A stretch of DNA of 24,000 nt from Candidatus Obscuribacterales bacterium (GTDB lineage: Bacteria; Cyanobacteriota; Vampirovibrionia; Obscuribacterales; Obscuribacteraceae). Position 1 is the first letter of the stretch; the number at the start of each line of letters is the position of its first letter. The stretch lies in assembly GCA_021732085.1 (NCBI GenBank), contig JAKFVQ010000030.1:69965-93964 (forward strand), read 5' to 3'. This document shows positions 5,829-22,179 of this stretch, one piece after another. A program made the position numbers and the translations under genes. A model generated the notes under the pieces. The model was not told where the DNA came from and searched no databases. It was given only the letters and a program-made list of their open reading frames with translations.

Positions 5829-5956
5829 GTGATCATTTTTTCCCTTGTTGCTTACTCTAAAAATTACAGTGTTTTTCTGACTTTCTCCAGTCCGATCATC
5901 TTTTTTCCGCTACTTGTCATTTCAAAAACTCAATTTTGCATTGTCAACTAGCGATT

Positions 5957-7603
5957 TCAGCTTCGATCCTTGTCAATGGTGACATCATCCGGACTCTTCA
6001 AGGGGACGCTTTCTCCCTGACCGGAAGGACCCTTCTTGTCATTCTTCTTTCCATTTTCCTGATCTGCTTTATTTCCTTGCTTCTGTTGATTATCGGTTTT
6101 CTTCTTCTCAATCTTCTTTTGATTGGGCTCAACATCAATCGTTTGATTAGCTGCCGGCGTAGCGTCGTCAGGCGCATCAACATCAATCAAATCCGGCACT
6201 GGCGACTGCATCAAAATCCAAGTTTGTAATGTCTGCAAGATGTTCCCAAAAACCATATACAGGTAAACGCCAGCAGGCAGCGGCATGAAGAAGAACATAC
6301 CTGTAATCGTAAACGGCATGATCTGTTGAGTTTGCTTTTGTACTGCCGCTTGCTCAGGATCGGTCGGTGGTGTCGTAACCATGAATTTCTGAGAGAGGTA
6401 CATGGTGAAACCGAAGAGAAGGATCAATCCGAGAACATCAAAATTCTCCGGCTTCAACAAATCCATTCCCTTGGCTGTCTTACCGATACTGCTTACGAAA
6501 TAGAATGGCTCGTCCTTCGCTTCACCAGGAATCATCGCATCGACAACAACTTCGCCGGAGTGCTTAAAGACTGCTTTGCCATTCTCATCAATTGACGCAG
6601 CATTAGGATCGTCCACTATTTTCCACTCAGGATGGAAGTTCACCGGTAACGTTCCCTCAACAGCTTTCACTCGGAATTGAACGCTCTTCCCAGCGAGCAA
6701 AGTAAGATTGCCAGGCTCAACAGCAACTCTTACAGGCTTGCCATCGACAATCATTTCGGCTGTCGTTTCTGACACAGCGGTTTTTTGCTTGATAGCTTCT
6801 TCGCCACCATCGCCTATAACAGGGAAGCCACCACCGCCTTGCTTAGGTTCGACTGTGACTGTGACCGGAACTGTTTTCTCATCAGTCTGATCAGACGTCT
6901 TCGGAAGAACCGCAGCAATCGTAATCTTTCCGTCAACCGGGAATATCGCCTTGCCATCGGGTTGCATGATCGCTTTGTTTGGATCCTGACCAATGCGCCA
7001 ATGAGGCTTAAAATCAGCAGGAGCTTCGCCCGCGCTGGTACCGACCGTGAAATCTACTGTATTCCACCCATCCGCGGTCGTCTGCCCTTCGGTCTTTCCA
7101 AGAATCAGAGTTTGATCGCCTGGGTGAACAACGAACTTACAAAGCTTTCCATCTTTCGAAACATAGGCGCTGTCTGCACCAGAAGTCGGATTTGTCGTAG
7201 TTGTCGTTTTGTCTGCTTCCTTTCCGGAAACAATTTTTACTTTCACTGGAATTGCTTTATCTTGAAACGGCGGCCCAGTGAAAGTCCCGAACAGCGCGAA
7301 AAGAATGGGCAATTGAACAAGCATCGGCAAGCATCCACCAAGTGGATTGATCTTGTTCTTCATGTAGAACTCAGCCATTTTCTTCTGCATGACTTCCGGC
7401 TGATCTTTATACTTGTCTTGCAGCGACTTGAGCATTGGCTGTAACTTGCCCATTCGCTGCATTGATTTAGTCGACGCTGATTGCAGCGGCCAAACAAGAA
7501 TTCTCACGGCTAAAGTCAAACCGAGAATCGCCCAGCCGTAGCTTCCTAGCGTCTTGTCCAGGAATTCAATAATGGGCAACATGAAAAGGTAAGTAATATC
7601 CAC
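5957..7603 (-). CDS. yidC: YidC/Oxa1-family membrane protein insertase with a large inserted extracytoplasmic region and a basic C-terminal tail
   Basis: Core motifs seen are WAILGLTLAVRILVWPL, MQKKMAEFYMKNKINPLGGCLPMLVQLPILFALF and PLPAGVYLYMVFGNILQTLQ. GTG start. The gene sits in the rnpA-yidD-yidC-jag context. Confidence 0.9.
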   Translation of the reverse strand: MDITYLFMLPIIEFLDKTLGSYGWAILGLTLAVRILVWPLQSASTKSMQRMGKLQPMLKSLQDKYKDQPEVMQKKMAEFYMKNKINPLGGCLPMLVQLPILFALFGTFTGPPFQDKAIPVKVKIVSGKEADKTTTTTNPTSGADSAYVSKDGKLCKFVVHPGDQTLILGKTEGQTTADGWNTVDFTVGTSAGEAPADFKPHWRIGQDPNKAIMQPDGKAIFPVDGKITIAAVLPKTSDQTDEKTVPVTVTVEPKQGGGGFPVIGDGGEEAIKQKTAVSETTAEMIVDGKPVRVAVEPGNLTLLAGKSVQFRVKAVEGTLPVNFHPEWKIVDDPNAASIDENGKAVFKHSGEVVVDAMIPGEAKDEPFYFVSSIGKTAKGMDLLKPENFDVLGLILLFGFTMYLSQKFMVTTPPTDPEQAAVQKQTQQIMPFTITGMFFFMPLPAGVYLYMVFGNILQTLQTWILMQSPVPDLIDVDAPDDATPAANQTIDVEPNQKKIEKKKTDNQQKQGNKADQENGKKNDKKGPSGQGESVPLKSPDDVTIDKDRS

Positions 7604-11945: not shown

Positions 11946-12008
11946 CCTTGTGATATACTGCACTGGTCGGCTCACAGAAGTGAGTCCGATTTGAGTCCAA
12001 GAAATTCT

Positions 12009-12082
12009 GGGATCGTAGCTCAGCTGGTTAGAGCGCCTGCCTGTCACGCAGGAGGTCGCGGGTTCGAGTCCCGTCGGTCCCG
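12009..12082 (+). tRNA. tRNA-Asp (anticodon GTC), no encoded CCA
   Basis: Manual cloverleaf: acceptor GGGATCG/CGGTCCC, D-arm GCTC-AGCTGGTTA-GAGC, anticodon arm CCTGC-CTGTCAC-GCAGG, T-arm GCGGG-TTCGAGT-CCCGT, discriminator G. Confidence 0.9.
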
Positions 12083-12104
12083 AATTTTTTTTCAATAGTT
12101 GTTA

Positions 12105-12128
12105 GGTGAACTTCGGTTCGCCTTTTTT
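12105..12128 (+). terminator. rho-independent terminator after tRNA-Asp
   Basis: Stem GGTGAAC / GTTCGCC with a TTCG loop, followed by TTTTTT. Confidence 0.6.
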
Positions 12129-12335
12129 GCTTTTAAAAGGTGATACAGAACACGTCGACTGACAGCAGTCGTCTATCCGCCGCTAGCGCGTACATCCTGG
12201 ACGCATTCACGTCCCGTGCTATCTATGAAATTGTGTCTAAAACTTCCACGACTTGCCGACAGTAAAGTTGAGCAATCCGCCAATTTTGACGTTTACATCA
12301 TTGCCTAAAGGTATTTTTGGTTCAGCCTTCTGCTG

Positions 12336-12617
12336 CTAGAACTCGGACATCTTAGGGTCGCGTTCGAAGTCATAGGCTGGGAGATTTTTGTCTTTCAGTT
12401 TGTTGAGGTCCACACTTCCTTGCAACTGTTCGTTCGCGTGCGGACCATGAATGCGATTCTGAGACCGCAGAGTTGCCCGTACGTCTCGTAAATCGAATTG
12501 GTCCAAAGAGAGGCTTGGAAAAGATGTCTGCTTGCTCTCAGGGCTCTCAAATAACTCTGCTGATCCACCCATGGGTGCACCTCTGGATTGCGGGTATCCA
12601 AAGCGATGATATGACAC
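12336..12617 (-). CDS. hypothetical protein (93 aa), weakly supported
   Basis: The ORF is open only from a GTG. No clear RBS and no recognisable motif. Confidence 0.3.
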   Translation of the reverse strand: MSYHRFGYPQSRGAPMGGSAELFESPESKQTSFPSLSLDQFDLRDVRATLRSQNRIHGPHANEQLQGSVDLNKLKDKNLPAYDFERDPKMSEF

Positions 12618-12948
12618 GCAAAATCGTCCGACTATGTGGACGTTACGTAGTCGTTGGTGATTAGCGTTTAAGAAACAGTCGAATTAGAAGTTCCAGGTCT
12701 TCTTTATCGTGATGTCGATATTGTTGTCGGAACGTCCGTACGGGTTGGTTGTGTCGTAGGGCTTGCGATTATCGTTTGTCGAACCAGTTCCAATCACCGC
12801 GAATTCATATCGGGAACCTACGAAGACCTTCTTTGAATTTGGACAAATTGATGACAGTCTGGTTTCGGCGTTCATGTTTCGGGGGATTGAAATTTTGCAA
12901 AACAAGGAAAAATGACATGGATGTCGTTCAGATCCGCTGGAGCTAGTA

Positions 12949-14649
12949 ATGGGAATTCCAAGATCAAGGACCAAAAGAAAACGTTCTTTGCGCAGCGGCT
13001 ATTTTGTTAGTCTTGCAGGTACTCTTTCTCTGTCCTTATTAGCCGGATTTATGCAGTCCAGCGATGCGGAGAGCATTTACGATCAGGTCATGCGATCAGA
13101 GAGAGCCAAACAGCAAAAGAATTCATCAAGTACTAATGCAGGAGCAAGTAACGCCATCACTGGTGGTGCAGCGAATTCGTCTCCATCTTCAGGGCAGTCC
13201 CCATATCCCTCTAGTGTGCAAGGACAATCTCCAAATCCTTCAAGCGCGCAAAGCGATGGCTCCAATCCAACTGGCGGTCAAGGTGGATCCGGAGTCCGAA
13301 CTCCATCCAAAGTACAAAATGCAGTAAATCGCGGCATACAGAGCGGTATACAAAGAGGGTTGAACCATGGCACCAATGCTATTGATAGGCTTGGTAGAAA
13401 GTTTGGAATTCAGGGACTTGGGTCGAGTTTGAGCTCCCCAAATGGAATGTCGATTCCCAATGGACAGTCAATTCCCAATGGACAGTCAATTCCATCAGGA
13501 GGGCAGCCTTATTCGCCCGCGCTCGGATCTCAAGCAAACGGACCTGAAGAGTCGTCTTACAGAAGGCATGTCACGCCATCTGTTTCTCAATCAAGCGGGG
13601 CGAACGATGATGGCAGAGCCGCTTGGGAAGCAGCGGGCAAACGTGCTCGCGAATCACAAAATAATGCGTATCTTACATCAGCGCAAAATGCTGAAGCTCG
13701 CGGAGATTGGATGCAGGCAGCATTTGCGTACAATCAAGCAATGGGTGACACGATTAGAACAGAAGATGACGAAGCAGGAAGAAGGAATCACACAGGCTCT
13801 AACGATGAGATGATTAAAAGGCAAGCACGGGATCCCGCTTTCAAGACGTTGAACATGAAGTCAGCCTATTGCTGGACTCAGTTAATCAACCAGATATATG
13901 CTGGCCAGGTCAAGAATGTTGACCCTAGGCATTGTGAAAGTCAGCTGGAACACAGCTATGCTTATTTGAAACTGCGTGACCCAGGAAATGCTGCCTGGCA
14001 TTATCTCGATGCGGTCTATTATTGCTCCGACAATAGAACAAAAGACTGGCACTACATTCTTGCTTGGAATCGAATTATCGATGCGCTTAAGTGTCCGCGA
14101 CTTACACCATCCATCAAAGCGAAGTGCTTGGCGTTGCAGGCCCATATCAAGCTAGCAAAAGAGCTACAACAAAATGACATGAGACGTGCCGTTTTTAGCA
14201 TGGAACAAGACCTTGTTTGGAATGTCGAACATCCCCACATAGCGGGCACAGAATACAGCACTTCCAGGGTTCAGATTGACGAAACGCATGAACGAGTGAC
14301 GACATATGCGAGGGATTATCTGAATACGGAACTTTGGGCTGTCGAGACCTACGATGATTGCAAAAAGGACATAGCGCAGAACTTCCCTGCATTCAAAACT
14401 AAATGGTTGAAACAGCTGAACGATATGATGGCCATGCCTAATCACGGGATGCCTGTGCCACCAGGTCCTTCCAATGAAGAGCCTGCGATATACTGCCCTC
14501 CTCGTTGGGAAGAGCTCGCTTTTGGTCCGTTGGATCTTACAATTGGAAGACAGTATCCTAATGGTGGACCTGGAAGCGGCCACTGTGATCCCGATCTTCT
14601 TCCGCGAGCCTATATTCAGGCGATGAACCGGAAAGTTAAAGGCAAGTAG
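12949..14649 (+). CDS. secreted hypothetical protein with S/G/Q/P-rich low-complexity N-terminal half and Cys-containing C-terminal domain
   Basis: GGAG lies 6 nt upstream of the ATG. A basic N-terminus plus the hydrophobic segment YFVSLAGTLSLSLLAGFMQSSDA looks like a signal peptide. The 566-aa ORF has no family I recognise. Confidence 0.75.
   Translation: MGIPRSRTKRKRSLRSGYFVSLAGTLSLSLLAGFMQSSDAESIYDQVMRSERAKQQKNSSSTNAGASNAITGGAANSSPSSGQSPYPSSVQGQSPNPSSAQSDGSNPTGGQGGSGVRTPSKVQNAVNRGIQSGIQRGLNHGTNAIDRLGRKFGIQGLGSSLSSPNGMSIPNGQSIPNGQSIPSGGQPYSPALGSQANGPEESSYRRHVTPSVSQSSGANDDGRAAWEAAGKRARESQNNAYLTSAQNAEARGDWMQAAFAYNQAMGDTIRTEDDEAGRRNHTGSNDEMIKRQARDPAFKTLNMKSAYCWTQLINQIYAGQVKNVDPRHCESQLEHSYAYLKLRDPGNAAWHYLDAVYYCSDNRTKDWHYILAWNRIIDALKCPRLTPSIKAKCLALQAHIKLAKELQQNDMRRAVFSMEQDLVWNVEHPHIAGTEYSTSRVQIDETHERVTTYARDYLNTELWAVETYDDCKKDIAQNFPAFKTKWLKQLNDMMAMPNHGMPVPPGPSNEEPAIYCPPRWEELAFGPLDLTIGRQYPNGGPGSGHCDPDLLPRAYIQAMNRKVKGK
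13438..13500 (+). repeat. in-frame 18-bp tandem repeat (~3.5 copies) encoding (S/M)IPNGQ units
   Basis: ATTCCCAATGGACAGTCA at 13453-13470 is repeated exactly at 13471-13488, with degenerate flanking copies. The protein reads PNGMSIPNGQSIPNGQSIPSGGQ. Confidence 0.8.
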
Positions 14650-14702
14650 GAATGGATGGGTGCGTAATTTTGGCTCACTGTTAGCTTGCGGAGTTCATCG
14701 AG

Positions 14703-14731
14703 GCGCGACAGCTCGTGTGCGCGAAATTTTT
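14703..14731 (+). terminator. possible terminator between convergent genes
   Basis: Hairpin GCGC(g)ACA-gctcg-TGTGCGC, followed by GAAATTTTT. Confidence 0.4.
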
Positions 14732-14754
14732 CTGCAACAACGAAAATGCCTGCT

Positions 14755-17112
14755 TCACTGAATTAGCGATACCATGCGAGCAAAACGGATCATTTTGCTG
14801 TAGGTGGGGTTCATTACAGGCTTGTTTCCTTCACCCCAATATGTGCCGGCCCAATAGCCAATAGGATTGTCGTCGGTGGAGAGAATTAAGCGTATGCTAC
14901 CTTTACCGAGTCCATCACGATGGCTCTGATGAGCATTTGGTGGAAGCTGCTCGGGAGCAAAATGATAAACAGAAGAACTATCTATTACTGGAATCTCAAT
15001 GTAGCGATAGCCGTTTTCTTCACGGATCTGGCTTGGTTGATCGAGTACGATCATCACGTGTCCTGTGTTCGTTGATTCAGTTGACCCTTCCTTCCATGCA
15101 ATGAAGTCTCCTGGTTTGAGATTGCGCCAGTTCGAGATTCCAAGCCAGCCGTTTGTTGGTTGATTTGGATCAAGCGTGTTGAAGAAGGAAGCCCAGACTT
15201 TAGCCTGTGGATAACTAGCGTTAGGTTCTCGTTCGCGAACTACTGCATAATGTCGAGGGCCGATTGAATGGACAACATAACTAATGAATCCTGAGCAATC
15301 GGTGTGAGCTTCCATTGAACCGTTGGCATTGGTAACCACTTGTCTTGAGGCTGATACTTCGTGGTGTGAATACCGAACGTCAACTGAGTTATCGAAAATT
15401 GATTCAGCAAGGCGCAACACCTGGTTACTCAGCGGTGTTAATGCCGTAGTGCTTTTTCCATCGGTTTTTAAGACTTGATTTTTTGACTCCGCGATACTTG
15501 CGCTTGGGTGTTCGGATGGCTGAACCAGAGAAGACAATCGCTCAGGAGTGGACGCGCGATGCTCGTAAAGCCAACGGATAGCATGCAATTCGGACTGCTT
15601 CATGCCTGGAGTTTCTTCGGGGTGCGGACTGATGATCAAGATCGAGCCACGTCCATACTTTGAGTAAATGATAGCGGGTGCACCAATCATGACACCGGGT
15701 TCCCCTCCGTCCCCAACGACTTCGCTTCGAAAGAACGCCAGCGGTTTGAACGAAGGATCTGGGGTCTCAAAAGGAGGCGCAAAAATTGGACCGTTTTCGT
15801 ATACTATTTTTACCATCTTATCTTTTATGCCGAAGATCTCCATGGCGGCAGGTGTCAGTTCTACGTCGACTAGTGGTGCGCCGGCAGTTCTGTACCAATG
15901 CTTTTCGTCAACTGTTTTTAGAGGAAGGATGCCCAGGTACGCATCTTTCAGGCTGGATACCAAATATGCCCCGGCACACACCCCTAGGTAAATACCGCCG
16001 TTTTGAATGAAGCGTTTTACTTCGTCACGGGCTGCAGGGCCCATTGCATACGATTCGGTTGTTGCTGAACCTCCCGGTATCACCAACGCATCAAAGTCTT
16101 TAAGTACTCCGTTGCGAATATCGTTGCCATCAATTTTCTGATATCTAATAGTTTCATCGTTGTTCCTGCTGAACTCTTTGGAAAATTCACTGGCCTCTGT
16201 GCCACTGTCGATGAATAGCGCCACGCGAATTCTTTCAGTAAGACCAATTGGACCTTGGTTGGTTTTGCTAGCGATGGTCGACTCCGGTTCTGCTTTAGGG
16301 ACGATACCGATTACTGGTCCGCCTTTTGCTTTGTGTCGATAAAGCCAGCGAACTGCATCCAATTCCATCTCGTGCAATCCTGGTGTCTTCTCTGGATGGG
16401 GGCTAATTGCGAGCACAAGTCCGAGTCCGTACCGAGAGAGCACCATTGCTGGCGCACCCAGCATGACACCTTGTTCACCGCCTTTGGCTACAACCTCAGT
16501 ACGAAAGAAGCCGAGCGGTGAGAAACTACTGTCCGGACGCTCGAGCGGCGGACCAAAAATGGGTCCGTTTTCGTAGAGTATCTTTAGATTGCTGGATTTT
16601 CTATTAAATACTTCCATGCCCAGTGGATTCAATTCTACGTCGACGGGTGTACCATCGGCTGTTCTGAACCAATGTTCTTGATCAAGTGTTTTTAGAGGCA
16701 ACAAGCCTAAATCGCTTTCCTTTGCTTGGGAAGCAAGATAAGCTCCTGCACAAATGCCCATATACAGCCCGCCACGGTCGATGTAGCGTCTGACCATTTC
16801 GCGAGCATCCGCTCCGAGACTCTGGGCTTCTTTGAGCGCACTGCCTCCTGGAACAATCAGAACGTCGGTGTCATTGAGCACACCATTTGTGATGTCGTCA
16901 CCATTGATGCTTTTCCAATTGAAATCGTCGGCATTCTGGAGATCTCGAGTCAGATTTTTTTTTGCAGGAGCTGAAACTCCGCGACCTATGAAAAGTGCTA
17001 CTCTAATCTTCTGGTCTTGGGCCTGGAGCGGAATTGAGCTAGTTAGACAATAGCTGAAAAATAGCATGATAACCAGGCTCCCCAAGAGGCGCGTTGATGC
17101 CGGATTTGTCAT
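14755..17112 (-). CDS. secreted multidomain hydrolase: two tandem class-I glutamine amidotransferase-like (BPL_N / peptidase C26-like) domains plus C-terminal NlpC/P60-type cysteine peptidase
   Basis: Signal-like N-terminus. Two ~230-aa repeats each contain VPGGSA, G(I/V)CAGAYL (nucleophile elbow) and SPHPE (His-x-Glu). The C-terminal region has DCSGFISYV and TGHVMIV, the Cys/His motifs of NlpC/P60. Confidence 0.85.
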   Translation of the reverse strand: MTNPASTRLLGSLVIMLFFSYCLTSSIPLQAQDQKIRVALFIGRGVSAPAKKNLTRDLQNADDFNWKSINGDDITNGVLNDTDVLIVPGGSALKEAQSLGADAREMVRRYIDRGGLYMGICAGAYLASQAKESDLGLLPLKTLDQEHWFRTADGTPVDVELNPLGMEVFNRKSSNLKILYENGPIFGPPLERPDSSFSPLGFFRTEVVAKGGEQGVMLGAPAMVLSRYGLGLVLAISPHPEKTPGLHEMELDAVRWLYRHKAKGGPVIGIVPKAEPESTIASKTNQGPIGLTERIRVALFIDSGTEASEFSKEFSRNNDETIRYQKIDGNDIRNGVLKDFDALVIPGGSATTESYAMGPAARDEVKRFIQNGGIYLGVCAGAYLVSSLKDAYLGILPLKTVDEKHWYRTAGAPLVDVELTPAAMEIFGIKDKMVKIVYENGPIFAPPFETPDPSFKPLAFFRSEVVGDGGEPGVMIGAPAIIYSKYGRGSILIISPHPEETPGMKQSELHAIRWLYEHRASTPERLSSLVQPSEHPSASIAESKNQVLKTDGKSTTALTPLSNQVLRLAESIFDNSVDVRYSHHEVSASRQVVTNANGSMEAHTDCSGFISYVVHSIGPRHYAVVREREPNASYPQAKVWASFFNTLDPNQPTNGWLGISNWRNLKPGDFIAWKEGSTESTNTGHVMIVLDQPSQIREENGYRYIEIPVIDSSSVYHFAPEQLPPNAHQSHRDGLGKGSIRLILSTDDNPIGYWAGTYWGEGNKPVMNPTYSKMIRFARMVSLIQ

Positions 17113-17294
17113 TTTTGGTTTCCCCCCAACTAGTTAGCAGCTGAAGGAAGTATTCTACCGTTAGTTAAGTGTGATTTCATCGGATCGATGAGCTAGAATG
17201 CCGGATTGTCGATGAAGCTGCCGTTTGGCATTTTCTTGGCATTTGTTTGTCAGTTTCATGGCACGAAACTGCGTGAAACCGGCATGAATAGTCG

Positions 17295-17323
17295 TTGACG
17301 TGAGATTCGTTTAAACACATAAT
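17295..17323 (+). promoter_or_regulatory. putative sigma70-type promoter for the LysM protein gene
   Basis: TTGACG (17295-17300), 17-nt spacer, CATAAT (17318-17323). It lies ~35 nt upstream of the ATG at 17358. Confidence 0.4.
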
Positions 17324-17357
17324 CAAGTCAAAGGGATGGATTGGGAGAGTTCAAAAA

Positions 17358-18179
17358 ATGCATCATCGAGAAAGAGATTTCAGCGCGGACAGAATTCAGA
17401 GCGCCATACTAGATGGGGTTAATCGTGATGGAAAGCCGGATCTAACTGAAGCACAACGTTTGCTGAACGCAGCGTTTTTGAATTTGCCATCGGAGAAATT
17501 CAACAAAATTGCGACTGATCTTGAAGTCCGCAATAGTGATTACCAGTGGCAGAAAGAGGAGGACGAACGCTCCGGCAGGACTCGACATGGCAATATTGCA
17601 AGCGGTTTAGGAGATGTGTCTGTTCATCGCGACCGGCATGGGAATGTTGTCGCTATGGTAATCAACGATTCTAAGGGATGGCACGCTATGGGTGCCGATA
17701 TCGTCGGAACGCGCGTTTTTGATGCAGGCAATCCAAAATTGTTGGATACAGGTCGAGTAGCGCAGCATCGCACTGAATACGCTTCTGTGCTGCCTCAGGA
17801 GAATGTGGTTAACCAATCAGTGTCGAACCGAATAGAAGTAAGACCGTTGCCCGCTCCTGCCCAACGAATCATGGCTCCGGAGATGATGATGCCGCCGGAT
17901 CAATATTCGCGCGGGCTTAGACAAGATATTGTCGATTGTTCGACCTATACGATAAGGAAGGATGATAATTGGTTGGTTATTGCGCAAAAATTGCATCCCG
18001 AGTTGCATCGCTATCGGGATTTACTTGATGAAGCCCATCGCTTGAAAGCCATCAATGGCGGTACCATTAATTTGAGAGTAGGTCAAAAAATTGCCACCAG
18101 AGATGCATACGATATTGACCGTGAGGTGCGCGCGCGCATGGCTCATGCTTATGGATGGAATCGTAACCGTCAGTATTAA
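17358..18179 (+). CDS. hypothetical protein with C-terminal LysM-like peptidoglycan-binding domain
   Basis: RBS GGGAGAG is present. The C-terminus YTIRKDDNWLVIAQKL...INGGTINLRVGQKIA fits the LysM pattern. The N-terminal 190 aa are unassigned. Confidence 0.7.
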   Translation: MHHRERDFSADRIQSAILDGVNRDGKPDLTEAQRLLNAAFLNLPSEKFNKIATDLEVRNSDYQWQKEEDERSGRTRHGNIASGLGDVSVHRDRHGNVVAMVINDSKGWHAMGADIVGTRVFDAGNPKLLDTGRVAQHRTEYASVLPQENVVNQSVSNRIEVRPLPAPAQRIMAPEMMMPPDQYSRGLRQDIVDCSTYTIRKDDNWLVIAQKLHPELHRYRDLLDEAHRLKAINGGTINLRVGQKIATRDAYDIDREVRARMAHAYGWNRNRQY

Positions 18180-18239
18180 TCTAGTCTTGCATCGGAATTC
18201 AGAGACTAACTAAGGGCTTGGTGAATCTCTTTGCTCAAA

Positions 18240-18276
18240 CGCCAGATCTATAACAGGTCTGGCGCTATTCTTTTTG
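18240..18276 (+). terminator. rho-independent terminator
   Basis: Stem CGCCAGA / TCTGGCG (18240-18264), followed by CTATTCTTTTT. Confidence 0.6.
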
Positions 18277-18409
18277 ACTTATCAGGGAGCAGGTGCAAGC
18301 CGGAGCAGGTTTTCCTGGTACTGTGAGTGGTGGCGTGGTGCCAGGGTGTTGACACGCCGTAGGCTGGGAGATCGCCCCCACCGGGAGAGAAATTTTTCGC
18401 AAGATCGGC

Positions 18410-18438
18410 TTGACAGGACTTCGAAGAGTGATTTAAAT
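18410..18438 (+). promoter_or_regulatory. putative sigma70-type promoter of the rsr / Y RNA locus
   Basis: Perfect -35 TTGACA (18410-18415), 17-nt spacer, -10 TTAAAT (18433-18438). This implies a ~390-nt leader before rsr. Confidence 0.45.
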
Positions 18439-18836
18439 TGGTCTTTAGATACGGAGTATTAGTTATGAAGTCGGCGAACGCAAAATTGAATATAAATCAA
18501 TTGCCGACCAGCGGCGTGGGGGCCACGTGCCCACGGACAGGCCGCTCCGATGCTATGCTCTGGTCGCAAATGTATTCAGATCACGGTAGACGCCCCGAAG
18601 AGAAACTTGATTCTCAGCGAAGCTAATTCACCCAGTGCTCTGACAGGTAAATCGATTGTAGCGGCGACGGTGTAGCTTTCCACAGTGGAAGTTCTGCACA
18701 AGTCTTTGCAAAATCGCGAGAAACCGTAAATGTTCCTGACTTTGCAGGTGGTGCTGGCAACATCGCTTATTCGCTTGCAGGTCGGTTTCTCGTCCACTTC
18801 CAATTCAAACAACGTGCCGAAAGGGGACGATGCAAA

Positions 18837-20462
18837 ATGTTCAACACTCTAAGAAATTTCATACTCAACAAGGCAACCCAGAGACAACACTTGCCAGGAA
18901 CCGTGCCGAACTCAGCCGGTGGCTATTCATTTGCGGTCGATTCCTGGAAGCAGTTCGAGAGATTTCTTTTGCTCGGAACAACCGGTGGAACATACTACAT
19001 CGGTGAACGCGACTTGACCAAGGAAAACCTGGACGCAGTGCTTAAGTGCATTGACGAAGATGGTGGACTGGCAGTAAGGCTGATTGAAGATGTTTCAATT
19101 GCCGGTCGCGCTCCAAAGAATGACCCTGCTATTTTTGCTCTGGCACTTGCTTGCTCAACAAGCAACGACCTGACGAGACAGTTGGCTCTGAATGCAGTGC
19201 CGAATGTTTGCAGAACCTTCACTCATCTTTCGCACTTCCTGACTTACATCAAGCAAGGAAAATTGCGCGGTTTTGGACGAGGTCTGACAAGAGCGATAGC
19301 GCGTTGGTTCAACGAAAAGCCAGTGGCAGATCTGGCGTATCAAGCCATTAAGTATCAATCTCGCGATGGCTACAGCCAGCAAGACGTATACAGACTTTCT
19401 CACCCTGCTCGTTTTTTGAAGCTGGATGCGGAAAGTCCTCGAAGACTGATTTATAACTTCATCGCAAAAGGCGAAGTGCCGGAGGAACTCGAAAATTTTG
19501 AAAGCGATGAGTATATTCCTGTTCTGAGACTTGCTGCGGCTCAAGGAGTTCTAAAAGGAAGAACGGAAAATATTCCGCTGGCAATTGACCAATGGGATTT
19601 GCCGATGGAAACTGTTCCGACTGAAAGTCGAACACGTGAAGTGTACAAAGCTGTTTTGCGCAAGGCTGGTTTGACCTGGATTCTGCGCAACTTGGGAAAC
19701 CTGACGGCTCAAGGAGTTCTGGACACAAAAGCTGATCTGGAATTCGTGATCGAGAGGCTGACCTCGCGAACACAGCTGCGAAAAGCGCGCATTCACCCGC
19801 TGGCTATCTTCCAAGCTCTGCGCATTTATGCTGCAGGCCGTGGATTCAAGGGAACCAACACATGGACTCCCAAGCGTAAATTGATCGATGCACTGGATAC
19901 AGCATTCTATGCTTCTTTCAAGGACGTTGAGCCAAGCGGTAAGCGAATCTTGTACGCGGTAGACGTATCTGGATCAATGCGAGGAGCTCGCGCATCAGGG
20001 TTGACTAACATCTCTGTCTTTGAAGCTGCCGCTGTAATGACAATGGCTGCTGCAAGTGTGGAAGATGATTTCACTTTGATCGCTTTCGATACCGGTACAT
20101 TTGAACTCAACCAACTGTCAAACAGACAAAGACTCGATGACATTGTGGCTAGATTTCAAAGTTTCGGTGGAGGTGGAACGGATTGCGCACTTCCGTTCAA
20201 ATACGCCCTGGACAAGAAGCTGGCGGTTGACGCATTTGTCGTCTTCACGGACAGCGAAACCTGGGCGGGGAACCAACATCCAATCGTTGCTCTGGATGAA
20301 TACAGAAAGCGCATGAATTTGCCGAATACAAAGGCTATTAACGTAGCTATGACGGCGAATCGCTTCACAACACTGCCCGCCTCAGATCCGCTCACTCTCG
20401 AGTGCTACGGATTTGACACAAGCATTCCGTCGGTGATCAGTTTGTTCCTGACGGGAGGCTAA
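18837..20462 (+). CDS. rsr: Ro 60-kDa autoantigen orthologue (Rsr): TROVE domain + von Willebrand A domain
   Basis: The N-terminal region NSAGGYSFAVDSWKQFERFLLLGTTGGTYYIGE is typical of TROVE/Ro60. The C-terminus has the vWA MIDAS motif YAVDVSGSM. Y-RNA-like genes follow immediately downstream. Confidence 0.9.
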   Translation: MFNTLRNFILNKATQRQHLPGTVPNSAGGYSFAVDSWKQFERFLLLGTTGGTYYIGERDLTKENLDAVLKCIDEDGGLAVRLIEDVSIAGRAPKNDPAIFALALACSTSNDLTRQLALNAVPNVCRTFTHLSHFLTYIKQGKLRGFGRGLTRAIARWFNEKPVADLAYQAIKYQSRDGYSQQDVYRLSHPARFLKLDAESPRRLIYNFIAKGEVPEELENFESDEYIPVLRLAAAQGVLKGRTENIPLAIDQWDLPMETVPTESRTREVYKAVLRKAGLTWILRNLGNLTAQGVLDTKADLEFVIERLTSRTQLRKARIHPLAIFQALRIYAAGRGFKGTNTWTPKRKLIDALDTAFYASFKDVEPSGKRILYAVDVSGSMRGARASGLTNISVFEAAAVMTMAAASVEDDFTLIAFDTGTFELNQLSNRQRLDDIVARFQSFGGGGTDCALPFKYALDKKLAVDAFVVFTDSETWAGNQHPIVALDEYRKRMNLPNTKAINVAMTANRFTTLPASDPLTLECYGFDTSIPSVISLFLTGG

Positions 20463-20468
20463 AGGAGC

Positions 20469-20520
20469 TAGCTGGTGGATAGACAATTTGCTTAGCAAAT
20501 ACGAGTTCACCAGCTATTTT
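20469..20520 (+). terminator. long hairpin plus T-run after rsr (terminator or processing structure)
   Basis: Outer stem TAGCTGGTG (20469-20477) / CACCAGCTA (20508-20516), inner hairpin ATTTGC-TTA-GCAAAT, then TTTT. Confidence 0.5.
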
Positions 20521-20535
20521 CCACTTTAGGTTTTC

Positions 20536-20613
20536 GGTGCGAGCCGAATCAAGAGGTTTATCGTCTGTCACACGAATCCACCCTCTTTAGCATAAATTGC
20601 TCGCACCATTTTT
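20536..20613 (+). ncRNA. Y-RNA-like module 1 (short, YrlB-like)
   Basis: Perfect 9-bp closing stem GGTGCGAGC (20536-20544) / GCTCGCACC (20599-20607). C20545 is unpaired and followed by GAA. Second helix AAGAGG (20551-20556) / CCTCTT (20582-20587). A GTTTATCG motif is present. The module ends in T5. Confidence 0.7.
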
Positions 20614-20622
20614 ACTGAACAC

Positions 20623-20696
20623 GCCTCTGAAGATTACCGGATATGATCATCGAGCTACGAACTCGAAGGCAGTTGGTTCGATTCCAACCGGGGGCA
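20623..20696 (+). tRNA. tRNA-Arg(ACG)-like gene, non-canonical (A at position 8)
   Basis: Manual cloverleaf: acceptor GCCTCTG/CGGGGGC (two G-U pairs), D-arm GATT-ACCGGATAT-GATC, anticodon arm TCGAG-CTACGAA-CTCGA, variable AGGCA, T-arm GTTGG-TTCGATT-CCAAC, discriminator A. Confidence 0.6.
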
Positions 20697-20746
20697 TTGT
20701 TTAACTTCAGTGGCACCGTGCGCGCCCCGCGTTACCGGATTAGAAT

Positions 20747-20819
20747 ACTCCGTTCTTCTAGTGGTTTAGGAAACCGTTCTTTCAAGACGGGAAGATGAGT
20801 TCAATTCTCATACGGAGTG
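20747..20819 (+). tRNA. tRNA-Glu(TTC)-like gene, non-canonical (A1-U72, AT-rich T stem)
   Basis: Manual cloverleaf: acceptor ACTCCGT/ACGGAGT, TC, D-arm TTCT-AGTGGTTTA-GGAA, anticodon arm CCGTT-CTTTCAA-GACGG, variable GAAG, T-arm ATGAG-TTCAATT-CTCAT, discriminator G. Confidence 0.6.
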
Positions 20820-20854
20820 ATGTTTGTATGCGCAAAATCGCGTTTTAAAAGGAG

Positions 20855-20998
20855 GTGGCTCGGACCGAATTGATAAGGTTATCGATCATAACGAGGGGTC
20901 GGTGGTTCAAGTCCACCCAGCGGCTTGCCGCTGTAGCTCAGTTGGTTAGAGCACCAAAAACGCCTTATCAAAATAAATTGTCCGAGCCATTGCTTTTG
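20855..20998 (+). ncRNA. Y-RNA-like module 2 with tRNA-like domain (YrlA-like)
   Basis: Closing stem GGCTCGGAC (20857-20865) / GTCCGAGCC (20980-20988), with C20866 unpaired and followed by GAA. Second helix TGATAAGG (20871-20878) / CCTTATCA (20963-20970). The interior holds T-arm GGTGG-TTCAAGT-CCACC (20901-20917), capped acceptor-like hairpin CAGCGG-CTTG-CCGCTG (20918-20933) and D-arm GCTC-AGTTGGTTA-GAGC (20936-20952). A T-rich tail follows. Confidence 0.75.
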
Positions 20999-21002
20999 GT
21001 TT

Positions 21003-21097
21003 TGCATGGACCGAATGGAGAAGTTTATCGACACAGTTAGGAAGGTGGGCTTGCGAATCCACCTGGCGCACGTCAAAGCTATTGGCATGCGTTTATG
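21003..21097 (+). ncRNA. Y-RNA-like module 3 (degenerate T-arm-like hairpin)
   Basis: The 5' end GCATGGACCGAATGGAGAAGTTTATCG carries the shared motif. GCATG (21004-21008) pairs with CATGC (21086-21090). An internal hairpin GGTGG-(10-nt loop)-CCACC lies at 21045-21064. The module ends GTTTAT. Pairing is less regular than in modules 1, 2, 5 and 6. Confidence 0.5.
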
Positions 21098-21130
21098 ACT
21101 TCTTCGAATAGATCGTCTATGCAGCTTATC

Positions 21131-21210
21131 CTGTGCGAGCCGAACGAAAGAAGGTTATCGTTTTTCCACGAACTAATCACACTATCTAAATCGTTCGCGT
21201 TCACGTTTTA
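21131..21210 (+). ncRNA. Y-RNA-like module 4 (short)
   Basis: The 5' end TGTGCGAGCCGAACGAAAGAAGGTTATCG carries the shared motif. CGAACGA (21141-21147) pairs with TCGTTCG (21191-21197). Imperfect lower pairing GTG/CAC. The module ends GTTTTAT. Confidence 0.5.
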
Positions 21211-21223
21211 TCCTTGGAAGTAA

Positions 21224-21318
21224 GATCTGGTGCGAGCCGGAGTGAGAGGCTTATCGTCTTTGTAAACGACTCAACACCCTCTCAGCGCGAAATAGTTCGC
21301 ACCAGATTCTCAATTTTT
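21224..21318 (+). ncRNA. Y-RNA-like module 5 (short, YrlB-like)
   Basis: 13-bp closing stem ATCTGGTGCGAGC (21225-21237) / GTTCGCACCAGAT (21295-21307), with C21238 unpaired. Second helix TGAGAGG (21243-21249) / CCTCTCA (21278-21284). A CTTATCG motif is present. The tail reads TTCTCAATTTTT. Confidence 0.7.
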
Positions 21319-21334
21319 GGAAGCTAGATAGAAA

Positions 21335-21476
21335 TGCGCGGACCGAAGCGAGAAGATTATCTTGAAGCCGAGCACGGGGATGGTTCAATTCCACCTGGCG
21401 GCACGCCGACAGAGCTCAAGGGGCGAGCAGCTCGGAGGTCTCTTCGCAATAAGTTGTCTGTGCAACTATATTTTGA
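21335..21476 (+). ncRNA. Y-RNA-like module 6 with tRNA-like domain (YrlA-like)
   Basis: Closing stem TGCGCGGAC (21335-21343) / GTCTGTGCA (21456-21464, two G-U pairs), with C21344 unpaired and followed by GAA. Second helix GCGAGAAGA / TCTCTTCGC (one mismatch). The interior holds T-arm-like GATGG-TTCAATT-CCACC (21379-21395), capped hairpin TGGCGG-CACG-CCGACA and D-arm-like GAGCT...AGCTC (21412-21433). The tail reads TATTTT. Confidence 0.7.
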
Positions 21477-21489
21477 ATTGTGTAAACGC

Positions 21490-21587
21490 GACACGCGAGC
21501 CGAACAGATGAAGTTTATCGATAGTTCCAAACTAACGAAACCACCAAGCCAGACTTCGTCGCACATGAATCGCTCGCGTCTTTTATT
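21490..21587 (+). ncRNA. Y-RNA-like module 7 (short)
   Basis: CGCGAGC (21494-21500) pairs with GCTCGCG (21572-21578), followed by an unpaired C and GAA. Second helix ATGAAG (21508-21513) / CTTCGT (21554-21559). A GTTTATCG motif is present. The module ends TCTTTTATT. Confidence 0.6.
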
Positions 21588-21654
21588 GTTTGAACTGAAG
21601 AAGTGGGACTATGTGGACTTGTTATCCCACGCTTATTTGCCTGTTCTAAAGCGC

Positions 21655-21966
21655 TTAAGCGACTGAGCTTTCTGCCGCAGAGCCGTCGTTCATGCGAGTT
21701 TTGAGATCTTCTGTGAAAGAATTGCAAAGGTTGCTTGCTTTTTCTTTCAATTCAAGGCTCTTCTCTTTGACTTGTCCAGCCAATTCTTTGGTTTTGTCTG
21801 CAATATCATGTCGCAGCTCTTCGCCTGGTTTTGGTGCAAACAGATTGCCGAGGACAAATCCTGCTGTCATGCCGGCAACCGTACCAACTACAGCACCAGC
21901 AGTCGCTCCTACGAAGAAGACAACTTGCATTGTTTTTAGTGTTGGATTGAGCAAGCTATTGAACAT
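21655..21966 (-). CDS. YtxH-domain (general stress-type) small membrane-anchored protein
   Basis: GATAGAVVGTVAGMTAGFVLGNLFAPKPGEELRHDI matches the YtxH pattern and is followed by a charged helical tail. I place the start at ATG comp(21964..21966), preceded by GGGAG, rather than at the track's TTG at 21981. Confidence 0.75.
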   Translation of the reverse strand: MFNSLLNPTLKTMQVVFFVGATAGAVVGTVAGMTAGFVLGNLFAPKPGEELRHDIADKTKELAGQVKEKSLELKEKASNLCNSFTEDLKTRMNDGSAAESSVA

Positions 21967-22179
21967 AATCTTTTCTCCCAAATGCGTTCTGACGTTTGGT
22001 TCTAGACAGAGGGTCGTCTAAATAGTTCCGGGCGTCTGAATTGTTTGGTCTGAGCTTAAGAGAAAATAGTTTGCTTTGATATAGTGGTGGATTGGTGAAG
22101 ATTCTCAAAACTTCCATCACCAGTAGATGTTTTGTCCTCCCTGCGCAAACGGGATACTAAACGAAGTAGTAGCAATACC

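What the first reader, a model, noticed from the sequence alone, without database searches (positions are those of the whole stretch)
20623..20819. Two non-canonical tRNA genes (Arg-ACG and Glu-UUC types) embedded inside the Y RNA array
Two sequences between modules 1 and 2 fold into complete cloverleaves with proper 7-nt anticodon loops (CTACGAA, CTTTCAA) and T-loops (TTCGATT, TTCAATT). Both deviate from housekeeping tRNAs. The Arg-type has A rather than the near-universal U at position 8, plus two G-U pairs in the acceptor. The Glu-type has A1-U72 and C2-G71 instead of the G1-C72/U2-A71 used as GluRS identity elements, plus an AT-rich T stem. The genome's tRNA-Asp at 12009 is GC-rich and canonical by contrast. 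They could be accessory (phage-like) tRNAs. They could be processing punctuation for a polycistronic Y RNA precursor (RNase P/Z cleavage). They could be decoys or substrates linked to the tRNA-related role proposed for Rsr/YrlA. I do not know of tRNA genes being described as integral parts of an rsr locus.
Basis: partly seen in the sequence, partly recalled or inferred. Interest (0 to 1): 0.65.

Follow-up and report, generated by a model that had tools for sequence, protein, structure and literature searches.

The report
Two tRNA genes inside Y-RNA cluster
Two real, conserved tRNA genes (Arg-ACG and Glu-UUC) sit between the small Y RNAs that follow the Ro60 (rsr) gene of an Obscuribacterales bacterium. 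This is a small new example of a known arrangement, not a new kind of element.

Summary
ARAGORN and Rfam both call tRNA-Arg(ACG) at 20623-20696 and tRNA-Glu(UUC) at 20747-20819 (48.8 and 49.4 bits, threshold 29).

- **Functional RNAs.** Four related genomes keep the pair at 90-97% identity, while rsr, dnaN and the Y modules are 79-83% identical. Every stem substitution keeps pairing.
- **Clade-specific indel.** The pair lies between Y module 1 and the YrlA-like module 2. Relatives with 69-72% Rsr identity have those two modules directly adjacent.
- **Co-transcription is inferred.** In one relative the spacers are only 5, 3 and 17 nt, so separate promoters are implausible. RNase P and 3' processing would release both tRNAs and Y RNAs.
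- **Not new in kind.** Deinococcus makes Yrn2, tRNA-Asp and Yrn1 as one precursor (Chen 2014), and later work states that Y RNAs lie next to tRNAs in some bacteria.
- **Widespread.** 47 of 80 bacterial and 20 of 80 viral rsr loci carry flanking tRNA genes, up to 28 per locus, and 607 of 609 are on the rsr strand.

Whether these are extra copies or the genome's only Arg-ACG and Glu-UUC genes could not be tested.

The parts
18410..18439 (+). Candidate sigma-70-type promoter (TTGACA, 18 nt, TAAATT) upstream of a 53-aa ORF and rsr. It is the possible start of the whole transcription unit.
   Evidence: Consensus scan, 10 of 12 matches. Weak evidence: 5 sites were found in the region against 3.1 expected.
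18837..20462 (+). rsr, the bacterial Ro60 orthologue (541 aa).
   Evidence: Pfam TROVE 3.3e-30 and vWA_Ro60 8.7e-47. There are 7837 homologues.
20469..20516 (+). Very stable hairpin just after the rsr stop codon, followed by UAUUUUCC.
   Evidence: RNAfold -21.7 kcal/mol, z = -5.0. A hairpin is kept in L187 and L007, but the U run is not.
20536..20607 (+). Y RNA module 1 (short type). The closing stem is GGUGCGAGC/GCUCGCACC, with a CGAA bulge and a GUUUAUCG motif.
   Evidence: Motif and fold. Homologous in L005, L007, L179 and L180.
20623..20696 (+). tRNA-Arg, anticodon ACG. It has A8, A20 and discriminator A73, and no encoded CCA.
   Evidence: ARAGORN. Rfam 48.8 bits. Cloverleaf is the minimum-energy fold. 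All pairs are kept in three genomes. Identity to L005 is 97.3% and to L007 90.5%.
20747..20819 (+). tRNA-Glu, anticodon UUC. It has A1-U72, a 4-nt variable loop and discriminator G73, and no encoded CCA.
   Evidence: ARAGORN 20746-20820. Rfam 49.4 bits at 20747-20819. All pairs are kept in three genomes. Identity to L005 and L007 is about 92%.
20854..20991 (+). Y RNA module 2, YrlA-like. It has a tRNA-like domain with the T arm 5' of the D arm.
   Evidence: Rfam YrlA 45.8 bits, E 1.2e-8, below the gathering score of 69. Fold. Homologous in all five relatives aligned.
21003..21095 (+). Y RNA module 3, with a T-arm-like hairpin. Boundaries are approximate.
   Evidence: Motif at 21011. Folds are not significant on their own.
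21135..21204 (+). Y RNA module 4 (short type). Boundaries are approximate.
   Evidence: Motif at 21140. Fold.
21224..21308 (+). Y RNA module 5 (short type), with a 13-bp closing stem and the CCGGAG variant of the motif.
   Evidence: A homologue lies in L007 at 4257-4340.
21335..21464 (+). Y RNA module 6 (long type, with a T-arm-like hairpin).
   Evidence: Motif at 21343. Fold.
21493..21579 (+). Y RNA module 7 (short type), followed by CUUUUAUUGUUU. It is the likely end of the unit.
   Evidence: Motif at 21500. Fold.

Best explanation
These are two genuine, selectively maintained tRNA genes, tRNA-Arg(ACG) and tRNA-Glu(UUC).

Origin. In one sub-lineage of Candidatus Obscuribacterales they became inserted between the first short Y RNA and the YrlA-like Y RNA of the array that follows rsr.

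Proposed mechanism (all steps inferred):
1. One transcript starts upstream of rsr and runs through rsr and the 1.1-kb array.
2. RNase P cuts at the 5' end of each tRNA.
3. The 3' ends are trimmed and CCA is added. CCA is not encoded here, nor in the housekeeping tRNA-Asp.
4. The same cuts separate Y module 1 from the YrlA-like module 2.

The mature tRNAs most likely work in translation as extra copies. They decode the major Arg codons (CGU/CGC/CGA, after A34-to-I editing) and the major Glu codons (GAA/GAG), and are made whenever the rsr/Y RNA unit is expressed.

The locus is a two-gene version of an arrangement that is common but little described: rsr and its Y RNAs embedded in same-strand tRNA gene clusters.

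Shown here: the genes, their conservation, the indel, the tight spacing and the wider pattern. Inferred: co-transcription, processing, charging and supernumerary status.
For: - **tRNA calls.** Two independent methods agree, also in the relatives.
- **Purifying selection.** tRNA identity to L005 and L007 is 90.5-97.3%, and housekeeping tRNA-Asp is 97.4% (to L005). By contrast rsr DNA is 81-83%, dnaN 83% and the Y modules 79-83% identical, and the spacers cannot be aligned. All 63 pair cells are paired in each tRNA. The five stem substitutions are all G.U to Watson-Crick switches.
- **Identity features read from the sequence.** Arg has A20, C35, G36 and the loop CUACGAA. Glu has U34 U35 C36 A37, U11-A24, U13.G22, A46 and a 4-nt variable loop.
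- **Indel.** Modules 1 and 2 are homologous in five genomes. They are about 12-25 nt apart in L179 (Rsr 72%) and L180 (69%), with the 170-250-nt tRNA segment only in the relatives at 86% or more.
- **Co-transcription.** Spacers in L007 are 5, 3 and 17 nt. No promoter-like site lies between the rsr stop and the pair, and no terminator met the scan's criteria in the array.
- **Precedent.** Deinococcus Yrn2, tRNA-Asp and Yrn1 are made as one precursor, and M. smegmatis YrlA is cut by RNase P and receives CCA.
- **Generality.** 500 tRNAs flank 80 bacterial rsr loci, 499 of them on the rsr strand, and 47 of 80 loci have at least one. For 80 viral loci the figures are 109 tRNAs, 108 on the rsr strand, and 20 loci. 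In 12 bacterial loci a Y-RNA motif is flanked on both sides by tRNAs.
- **Codons.** CGU/CGC/CGA and GAA are the main Arg and Glu codons in the window's genes.
Against: - No expression, end-mapping or charging data exist for this organism.
- The rest of the genome could not be scanned, so 'extra copy' rests on parsimony alone.
- The very stable hairpin after rsr, followed by UAUUUU, and the U runs after each Y module could terminate part of the transcripts.
- A8 in the Arg tRNA, conserved in all four genomes, and the non-standard 15-48 combination are unusual for an efficient translational tRNA.
- The discriminator base varies among close relatives: Arg has A, U, U and G; Glu has G, G, A and A. 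That suggests relaxed constraint at a position that often matters for charging.
- rsr itself shows no special demand for these codons.
Confidence: 0.55

Rival explanations
1. They are the genome's only tRNA-Arg(ACG) and tRNA-Glu(UUC) genes: ordinary housekeeping tRNAs that happen to lie in the rsr/Y RNA unit.
For: - They read the major Arg and Glu codons of the window's genes.
- They are as conserved as housekeeping tRNA-Asp.
- The anticodon loops are canonical and the main identity elements are present.
- In Deinococcus the tRNA in the Y RNA precursor is an ordinary tRNA-Asp.
Against: - The pair is absent from the same inter-module position in L179 and L180.
- It is absent from other Obscuribacterales rsr loci.
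- The whole rsr island is absent downstream of dnaN and tRNA-Asp in L181, L183 and L185. Those lineages must carry these essential tRNAs elsewhere, so 'sole copy' needs an extra loss event.
- GC content (53% and 44%) and Rfam scores (about 49 bits) are far below tRNA-Asp (68%, 71.5 bits).
- A8 and the variable discriminator are also atypical for housekeeping genes.
Confidence: 0.17
2. They are kept mainly for a non-translational role tied to Rsr and the Y RNAs. Possible roles: decoys or competitive inhibitors of anticodon nucleases, nuclease-resistant replacements for attacked tRNAs, or preferred Rsr/PNPase substrates or sensors.
For: - rsr operons respond to damaged tRNAs. Colicin D, which cuts tRNA-Arg, activates the rtc operon, and a competitive-inhibitor role has been proposed for the YrlA tRNA-like domain.
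- RtcB tRNA ligase genes lie next to rsr plus tRNA clusters in L027, L063 and L093.
- tRNAs, RtcB and TROVE proteins are listed together as a phage counter-defence kit.
- The non-canonical A8, weak AU- and G.U-rich stems and a variable discriminator fit relaxed translational constraint.
Against: - The anticodon loops are fully canonical, so there is no sign of nuclease evasion in the sequence.
- Arg- and Glu-specific identity features are kept.
- The window has no RtcB, nuclease or defence gene.
- There is no functional evidence at all.
Confidence: 0.13
3. They are kept chiefly as processing signals. RNase P and RNase Z sites define the ends of the neighbouring Y RNAs, and the tRNAs themselves are by-products.
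For: - Spacing to Y module 1 and module 2 is very tight in L007.
- Deinococcus provides a polycistronic precedent.
- In 12 other bacterial loci a Y-RNA motif lies between tRNAs.
Against: - L179 and L180 make do without any tRNA between the same two modules.
- Five other module junctions in the window have no tRNA.
- The anticodon arms and identity elements are as conserved as the acceptor and T arms, which a pure processing signal would not need.
Confidence: 0.1
4. They are decaying pseudogenes, or chance tRNA-like folds.
For: Rfam scores are low for bacterial tRNAs. The Arg gene has A8, and the Glu gene has AU-rich stems.
Against: Identity across four genomes is 90-97%, with every stem pair kept, while the flanking spacers are unalignable. 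Scores are 20 bits above the Rfam threshold.
Confidence: 0.03

Closest known systems
Deinococcus radiodurans rsr locus: Yrn2, tRNA-Asp and Yrn1 made as one precursor (Chen et al. 2014, PMC4201824)
   Same: A bona fide tRNA gene lies between Y RNA genes next to rsr, on the same strand. In Deinococcus northern blots show the tRNA is made with the Y RNAs as one precursor.
   Different: - Here there are two tRNAs (Arg-ACG and Glu-UUC) rather than one tRNA-Asp.
- The array lies downstream of rsr, not upstream, and has seven Y modules.
- The tRNAs are less canonical than the genome's other visible tRNA.
- Co-transcription is only inferred here.
tRNA array units and tRNA gene clusters (Tran et al. 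2016; Morgado and Vicente 2018-2019)
   Same: These are dense same-strand runs of tRNA genes of mobile or accessory character. A TROVE-domain gene was noted in 20 of 29 archaeal clusters. In my survey, 23 of 80 bacterial rsr loci carry at least 10 flanking tRNAs.
   Different: The window has only two tRNAs, far below the definition of at least 20 genes. They are interleaved with Y RNAs, and no mobility genes are seen.
YrlA and M. smegmatis YrlA tRNA-like domains (Rfam RF02553)
   Same: They are tRNA-shaped RNAs encoded beside rsr. [quoted passage not shown]
   Different: YrlA has its T arm 5' of its D arm, has no anticodon arm, and is closed by a Ro60-binding stem. The two genes here are complete cloverleaves in normal order, with amino-acid-specific features.
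Phage-encoded accessory tRNAs
   Same: Both have low GC, AU- and G.U-rich stems and low covariance-model scores. The Glu gene is 81% identical to tRNA-Glu of T4-like Enterobacter phages. Phages also carry rsr with tRNAs.
   Different: No phage genes lie in the window. The locus sits next to dnaA and dnaN on a chromosome. There are no exact core matches in IMG/VR.
b7a-tRNA (band-7-associated tRNA-like RNA of RNA-repair loci; Burroughs and Aravind 2016, as cited in 10.1101/312249)
   Same: [quoted passage not shown] It is encoded in RtcB-type repair neighbourhoods and occasionally next to rsr.
   Different: I could not obtain its sequence or defining features, and the window has no band-7 or RtcB gene. 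Membership was not tested.

Membership tests
tRNA (Rfam RF00005) | Score at or above the curated gathering score, with a full-length match to the model | tested here: met
   48.8 and 49.4 bits against 29, model positions 1-71 of 71. ARAGORN agrees.
tRNA (Rfam RF00005) | Cloverleaf with 7/4/5/5-bp stems and 7-nt anticodon and T loops, kept in relatives | tested here: met
   The cloverleaf is the minimum-energy fold. All 21 pairs are standard in all three aligned genomes for both genes.
tRNA (Rfam RF00005) | Conserved core nucleotides U8, A14, G18 G19, U33, U54 U55 C56 and A58 | tested here: inconclusive
   Glu has all of them. Arg has all except U8, which is A8 in all four genomes, and it has C15/A48 instead of a standard 15-48 pair.
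tRNA (functional, translational) | Mature species of about 75 nt with CCA, aminoacylated in vivo | not testable with these tools
   No expression data. CCA is not encoded, but neither is it in tRNA-Asp.
tRNA-Arg(ACG) by E. coli ArgRS and TadA rules (established knowledge) | A20, C35, G36 and the anticodon loop CUACGAA for A34-to-I editing | tested here: met
   Read directly from the sequence. The rules come from E. coli and were not tested for this phylum.
tRNA-Glu(UUC) by E. coli GluRS rules (established knowledge) | U34 U35 C36 A37, U11-A24, U13.G22 with A46, and a 4-nt variable loop lacking position 47 | tested here: met
   Read directly from the sequence.
tRNA-Glu(UUC) by E. coli GluRS rules (established knowledge) | G1-C72 and U2-A71 in the acceptor stem | tested here: not met
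   A1-U72 in the window and L187, G1.U72 in L005 and L007, and C2-G71 in all. These two pairs vary among bacteria, so this does not exclude Glu identity.
Y RNA plus tRNA polycistron at an rsr locus (Deinococcus type) | A tRNA gene between Y RNA genes, on the same strand, next to rsr | tested here: met
   Module 1 at 20536-20607, the tRNAs, then module 2 at 20854-20991, all on the + strand and 74-392 nt after rsr.
Y RNA plus tRNA polycistron at an rsr locus (Deinococcus type) | A single precursor transcript containing Y RNAs and the tRNA | not testable with these tools
   Only indirect evidence: spacers of 5, 3 and 17 nt in L007, and no promoter-like site between rsr and the pair.
tRNA array unit (Tran et al. 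2016) | At least 20 tRNA genes at a density of at least 2 per kb | tested here: not met
   Two tRNA genes in the array and three in 24 kb.
YrlA (Rfam RF02553) | A Ro60-binding closing stem with the GNCGAA motif, enclosing a T arm followed by a D arm, with no anticodon arm | tested here: not met
   The two genes are stand-alone cloverleaves. The YrlA-type match is the neighbouring element at 20861-20987.
Prophage- or phage-borne tRNA | Located within a block of phage genes, or nearly identical to a phage tRNA | tested here: not met
   Pfam and PHROGs find no phage structural or integration genes. No repeat of the tRNA-Asp 3' end is present. IMG/VR has no exact core matches. The best phage hit is 81%.

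The most novel reading that the evidence does not exclude
rsr, its Y RNAs and the linked tRNA genes may together form a widespread and often mobile 'tRNA back-up and clean-up' cassette. In this reading the tRNAs are stress- or attack-specific replacements, or decoys, for tRNAs destroyed by anticodon nucleases. The Rsr/Y RNA particle, often with RtcB, would clear or repair the damaged ones.

The window's pair would then be back-ups for Arg(ICG) and Glu(UUC). From the literature and my own recall, both are known targets of tRNA-cleaving toxins.

The near-perfect co-orientation (607 of 609 tRNAs on the rsr strand) and the RtcB neighbours are compatible with this reading but do not show it.
Probability: 0.15. 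Interest if true: 0.75.

Novelty: new member of a known kind. Interest (0 to 1): 0.35.

Why it matters
- **For this locus.** It tells annotators that the 1.1-kb 'intergenic' stretch after rsr is a dense RNA operon of seven Y-type RNAs and two tRNAs, not empty DNA. The 110-aa ORF called there by automatic pipelines is probably spurious.
- **For the field.** The physical link between Ro60/Y RNA genes and tRNA genes is far more common and more orderly than the published remark 'in some bacteria' suggests. It covers over half of the sampled bacterial loci and has near-total strand agreement. That strengthens the idea that bacterial Ro60 particles work on or with tRNAs.
- **For experiments.** It offers many natural loci in which to test whether tRNA processing enzymes mature Y RNAs, and whether Y RNAs arose from tandem tRNAs.

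Tried and rejected
- **Finding the source genome to count its other tRNAs.**
  - The exact-protein look-up returned only metagenome contigs of 10 kb or less.
  - The metagenome scan gave five distant loci.
  - The sole-copy test therefore could not be run.
- **Phage origin.**
  - The tRNA cores have no exact matches in IMG/VR.
  - The phage BLAST hit only the Glu gene, at 77-81%.
  - PHROGs, Pfam, NCBIfam and PADLOC found nothing phage- or defence-related in the neighbours.
- **Island integrated at tRNA-Asp.** The window has no repeat of the tRNA-Asp 3' end. However, the region downstream of tRNA-Asp does vary among relatives.
- **Common descent with tRNAs of other rsr clusters.** The best global identity is 68% or less, and the best hits have other anticodons. 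Rejected. My first attempt used free end gaps and gave meaningless 100% values.
- **The Arg-Glu dimer as recent progenitor of the adjacent YrlA module (dimeric-tRNA model).** The YrlA T arm is GGUGGUUCAAGUCCACC and its D arm is GCUCAGUUGGUUAGAGC. They resemble neither the Arg T arm (GUUGGUUCGAUUCCAAC) nor the Glu D arm (UUCUAGUGGUUUAGGAA). Rejected by eye.
- **Codon compensation for rsr.** rsr uses these codons no more than dnaA or dnaN do. Rejected.
- **Covariation.** With only three to four distinct sequences there are no double compensatory changes, only one-sided ones.
- **The 49-nt Arg-Glu spacer.** It has a small GC hairpin, but the fold is not significant and the spacer is not conserved.
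Full report
**1.

ARAGORN finds three tRNA genes in the window:
- tRNA-Asp(GTC) at 12008-12083
- tRNA-Arg(ACG) at 20623-20696
- tRNA-Glu(TTC) at 20746-20820

Rfam's tRNA model matches 20623-20696 at 48.8 bits and 20747-19 at 49.4 bits; the latter range is 20747-20819. The gathering score is 29, and both matches cover the full model. In the 24-kb gathering-mode search the Glu gene was lost to the speed filters, which is a technical point worth remembering. RNAfold gives the cloverleaf as the minimum-energy structure for both.

- Loops are CUACGAA and UUCGAUU for Arg, and CUUUCAA and UUCAAUU for Glu.
- Arg has A8, U4.G69 and U6.G67.
- Glu has A1-U72, C2-G71 and the T stem AUGAG/CUCAU.
- The neighbouring tRNA-Asp is indeed much more canonical: 71.5 bits and 68% GC, against 53% and 44%.

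**2. The surroundings**

The window is chromosomal and lies at the replication origin. It holds rnpA, yidD, yidC, dnaA and dnaN, followed by tRNA-Asp. DnaN's named relatives at 70-83% identity are Candidatus Obscuribacterales, which are non-photosynthetic Cyanobacteriota.

rsr (TROVE plus Ro60-type vWA domains) is at 18837-20462. It is followed by about 1.1 kb without credible coding sequence. That stretch carries seven Y-RNA-like modules, all on the + strand:
- Each module has a closing stem, a CCGAA bulge and a GUUAUC motif.
- The motif occurs six times, against 0.08 expected by chance, plus one variant.
- Module 2 (20854-20991) matches Rfam YrlA below threshold: 45.8 bits against 69, E 1.2e-8.

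The two tRNAs lie between module 1 (20536-20607) and module 2.

**3. They are functional RNAs, not relics**

The same pair, in the same place, occurs in four distinct genomes:

| Locus | Rsr identity to the window |
|---|---|
| Window (same locus also on metagenome contigs L001-L004) | 100% |
| L187 | 96% |
| L007 | 88% |
| L005 / L006 | 86% |

Rfam confirms the calls in L006 and L007 at 46.7-52.9 bits.

Conservation of the tRNAs stands out against their surroundings:

| Element | Identity to L005 / L007 |
|---|---|
| tRNA-Arg | 97.3% / 90.5% |
| tRNA-Glu | about 92% / about 92% |
| tRNA-Asp (housekeeping) | 97.4% (L005) |
| rsr DNA | 81-83% |
| dnaN DNA | 83% (L005) |
| Y modules | 79-83% |

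The spacers differ in length (49, 23 and 3 nt between the two tRNAs) and cannot be aligned.

All 21 pairs of each cloverleaf are standard pairs in all three aligned genomes. The five stem substitutions are all one-sided switches between G.U and Watson-Crick pairs. With so few sequences there are no double compensatory changes.

Two signs of relaxed constraint remain. The discriminator base varies: Arg has A, U, U and G, and Glu has G, G, A and A. A8 is fixed in the Arg gene.

**4. The pair is a lineage-specific indel in an older Y RNA array**

In L179 (Rsr 72%) and L180 (69%), modules 1 and 2 are clearly homologous to those of the window. They sit only about 12-25 nt apart, with no tRNA between them. 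Other Obscuribacterales or Melainabacteria rsr loci (L028, L065, L077, L080) have no tRNA either.

The whole rsr island is missing downstream of dnaN and tRNA-Asp in three relatives whose DnaN is 81-88% identical (L181, L183, L185). So the locus lies in a variable region. I found no integration scar and no phage or mobility genes.

Every bacterium needs tRNA-Glu(UUC), and almost all need tRNA-Arg(ACG). The lineages without the pair must therefore carry these genes elsewhere. Extra copies is thus the parsimonious reading. It is an inference, because I could not scan the rest of the genome.

**5. How it most likely works**

The evidence for co-transcription is structural:
- All elements share one strand.
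- In L007 the gaps are 5 nt (module 1 to Arg), 3 nt (Arg to Glu) and 17 nt (Glu to module 2), which leaves no room for promoters.
- The consensus scan finds a promoter-like site only upstream of rsr (18410-18439) and a weak one at 21443-21472. No terminator in the array met the scan's criteria.

I therefore infer one precursor. RNase P (rnpA is in the window) cuts at the tRNA 5' ends. The 3' ends are trimmed and receive CCA, which is not encoded here or in tRNA-Asp. These cuts also free the neighbouring Y RNAs.

The mature tRNAs keep the features that E. coli ArgRS, TadA and GluRS use, apart from the first two acceptor pairs of the Glu tRNA (rules from established knowledge). They read the most used Arg and Glu codons of the window's genes.

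Caveats:
- A very stable hairpin followed by UAUUUU lies just after rsr (z = -5.0). Its U run is not conserved.
- A U run follows each Y module, so some termination is possible.

**6. Comparison with what is known**

- Chen et al. [quoted passage not shown]
- The same paper showed that M. smegmatis YrlA is cut by RNase P and receives CCA.
- It discarded YrlA candidates that overlapped tandem tRNA genes.
- Wang et al. [quoted passage not shown] They cite a model in which YrlA arose from dimeric tRNA transcripts.
- For archaea, a TROVE gene was noted in 20 of 29 tRNA gene clusters, in a single sentence.

The tRNA-array papers I could read do not mention Ro60 or TROVE for bacteria or viruses.

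The window is therefore a new member of a known arrangement. Its particulars are two tRNAs, downstream of rsr, in a seven-module array, in a phylum where this had not been looked at.

**7. The wider pattern (my own survey)**

| Set | Loci | tRNAs (ARAGORN) | On the rsr strand | Loci with at least 1 tRNA | Loci with at least 10 tRNAs |
|---|---|---|---|---|---|
| Bacterial rsr loci (768 kb) | 80 | 500 | 499 | 47 | 23 |
| IMG/VR viral rsr loci | 80 | 109 | 108 | 20 | 4 |

- **Scope.** The bacterial loci come from many phyla and were fetched with an Rsr alignment. The largest cluster has 28 tRNAs within 5 kb either side of rsr.
- **Density.** It is about 6.5 tRNAs per 10 kb. From general knowledge, a typical bacterial genome has roughly 0.1-0.2.
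- **Cross-check.** On 13 loci Rfam gave 207 matches at or above threshold, and all 150 listed were tRNA, most at about 48-60 bits. ARAGORN made 262 calls on the same loci.
- **Y-RNA motif.** It occurs 220 times on the rsr strand and 46 times on the other. In 12 bacterial loci a motif is flanked on both sides by tRNAs.
- **RtcB.** Ligase genes adjoin three of the clusters.

Limits of the survey:
- The 80 loci are the best matches to my query, not a random sample.
- Some isolated ARAGORN calls next to Y motifs may be YrlA tRNA-like domains.
- No matched control gene set was run.

The window's two tRNAs are not close relatives of any tRNA in these clusters: global identity is 68% or less. tRNA capture next to rsr seems to have happened repeatedly.

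**8. Verdict**

- Novelty: new member of a known kind.
- Interest: modest (0.35). It comes mainly from the scale and orderliness of the rsr-tRNA linkage, which deserves a proper census.
- Most novel reading not excluded: rsr, Y RNAs and linked tRNAs form a tRNA back-up and clean-up cassette against tRNA-damaging attacks. I put this at about 0.15.

Noticed in passing
L014-L093 (for example L062, L046, L042, L038, L014, L030, L093): rsr is embedded in large same-strand tRNA gene clusters in many bacterial phyla, including Myxococcota, Verrucomicrobiota, Chloroflexota, Armatimonadota and Dormiibacterota. The 80 loci carry 500 tRNAs, 499 of them on the rsr strand, with up to 28 within 5 kb either side. 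In Myxococcota a recurring order is Phe-Lys-Gly-(Gly)-Thr, then rsr, then Asn-Glu.
   Followed up: partly
L027 3559-4950; L063 7636-9039; L093 7319-8485: RtcB tRNA ligase genes lie beside rsr within or next to the tRNA clusters. In L022, an AbiEii-like nucleotidyltransferase toxin gene (5399-6202) sits between rsr and the downstream tRNAs.
   Followed up: partly
L181, L183, L185 compared with window 12084-22000: Obscuribacterales relatives with 81-88% DnaN identity keep dnaN and tRNA-Asp but lack the whole rsr island downstream. The region after tRNA-Asp is variable. The window has no repeat of the tRNA-Asp 3' end.
   Followed up: partly
L011 / L012: An Rsr 58% identical to the window's lies on a phage contig with baseplate J, lysozyme, helicase and SSB genes. 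That contig has no tRNA nearby.
   Followed up: no
window 20469-20516: A very stable hairpin lies right after the rsr stop codon (-21.7 kcal/mol, z = -5.0) and is followed by UAUUUUCC. The hairpin is kept in L187 and L007, but the U run is not. It could be an attenuator, a terminator or a processing element.
   Followed up: partly
window 20608-20617, 20992-21010, 21205-21212, 21309-21325, 21465-21480, 21580-21592: Almost every Y module is followed within about 10-15 nt by a run of four or five U. This may mark 3' ends or partial termination (read).
   Followed up: no
window 21334-21666 (+): A 110-aa ORF, called as a gene in the public metagenome annotations (for example L001 9285-9617), overlaps Y modules 6 and 7. 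It has no family match and is probably spurious.
   Followed up: partly
window 17358-18179 and 18465-18626 (+): A 273-aa protein recurs upstream of rsr in all close relatives examined (immediately upstream except in L187), and a 53-aa ORF recurs immediately upstream of rsr in L001-L005. Neither has a match in Pfam, NCBIfam, PADLOC or PHROGs. Gene order upstream of rsr is rearranged in L187.
   Followed up: partly
window 20747-20819: Technical point. Rfam in gathering mode on the whole 24-kb window missed this tRNA. It scores 49.4 bits when 1.5 kb is searched. Counts from gathering-mode scans of long stretches can therefore be too low.
   Followed up: yes
L143 / L144 7032-7458; L074 4567-4649; L042 4573; L063 4747; L158 3409: Some ARAGORN calls next to Y-RNA motifs, and some odd calls (tRNA-???, Pyl, SeC), may be YrlA tRNA-like domains or aberrant tRNAs rather than normal genes. 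Across the rsr-linked calls, position 8 is not U in about 22%, but the register of those calls was not checked.
   Followed up: no
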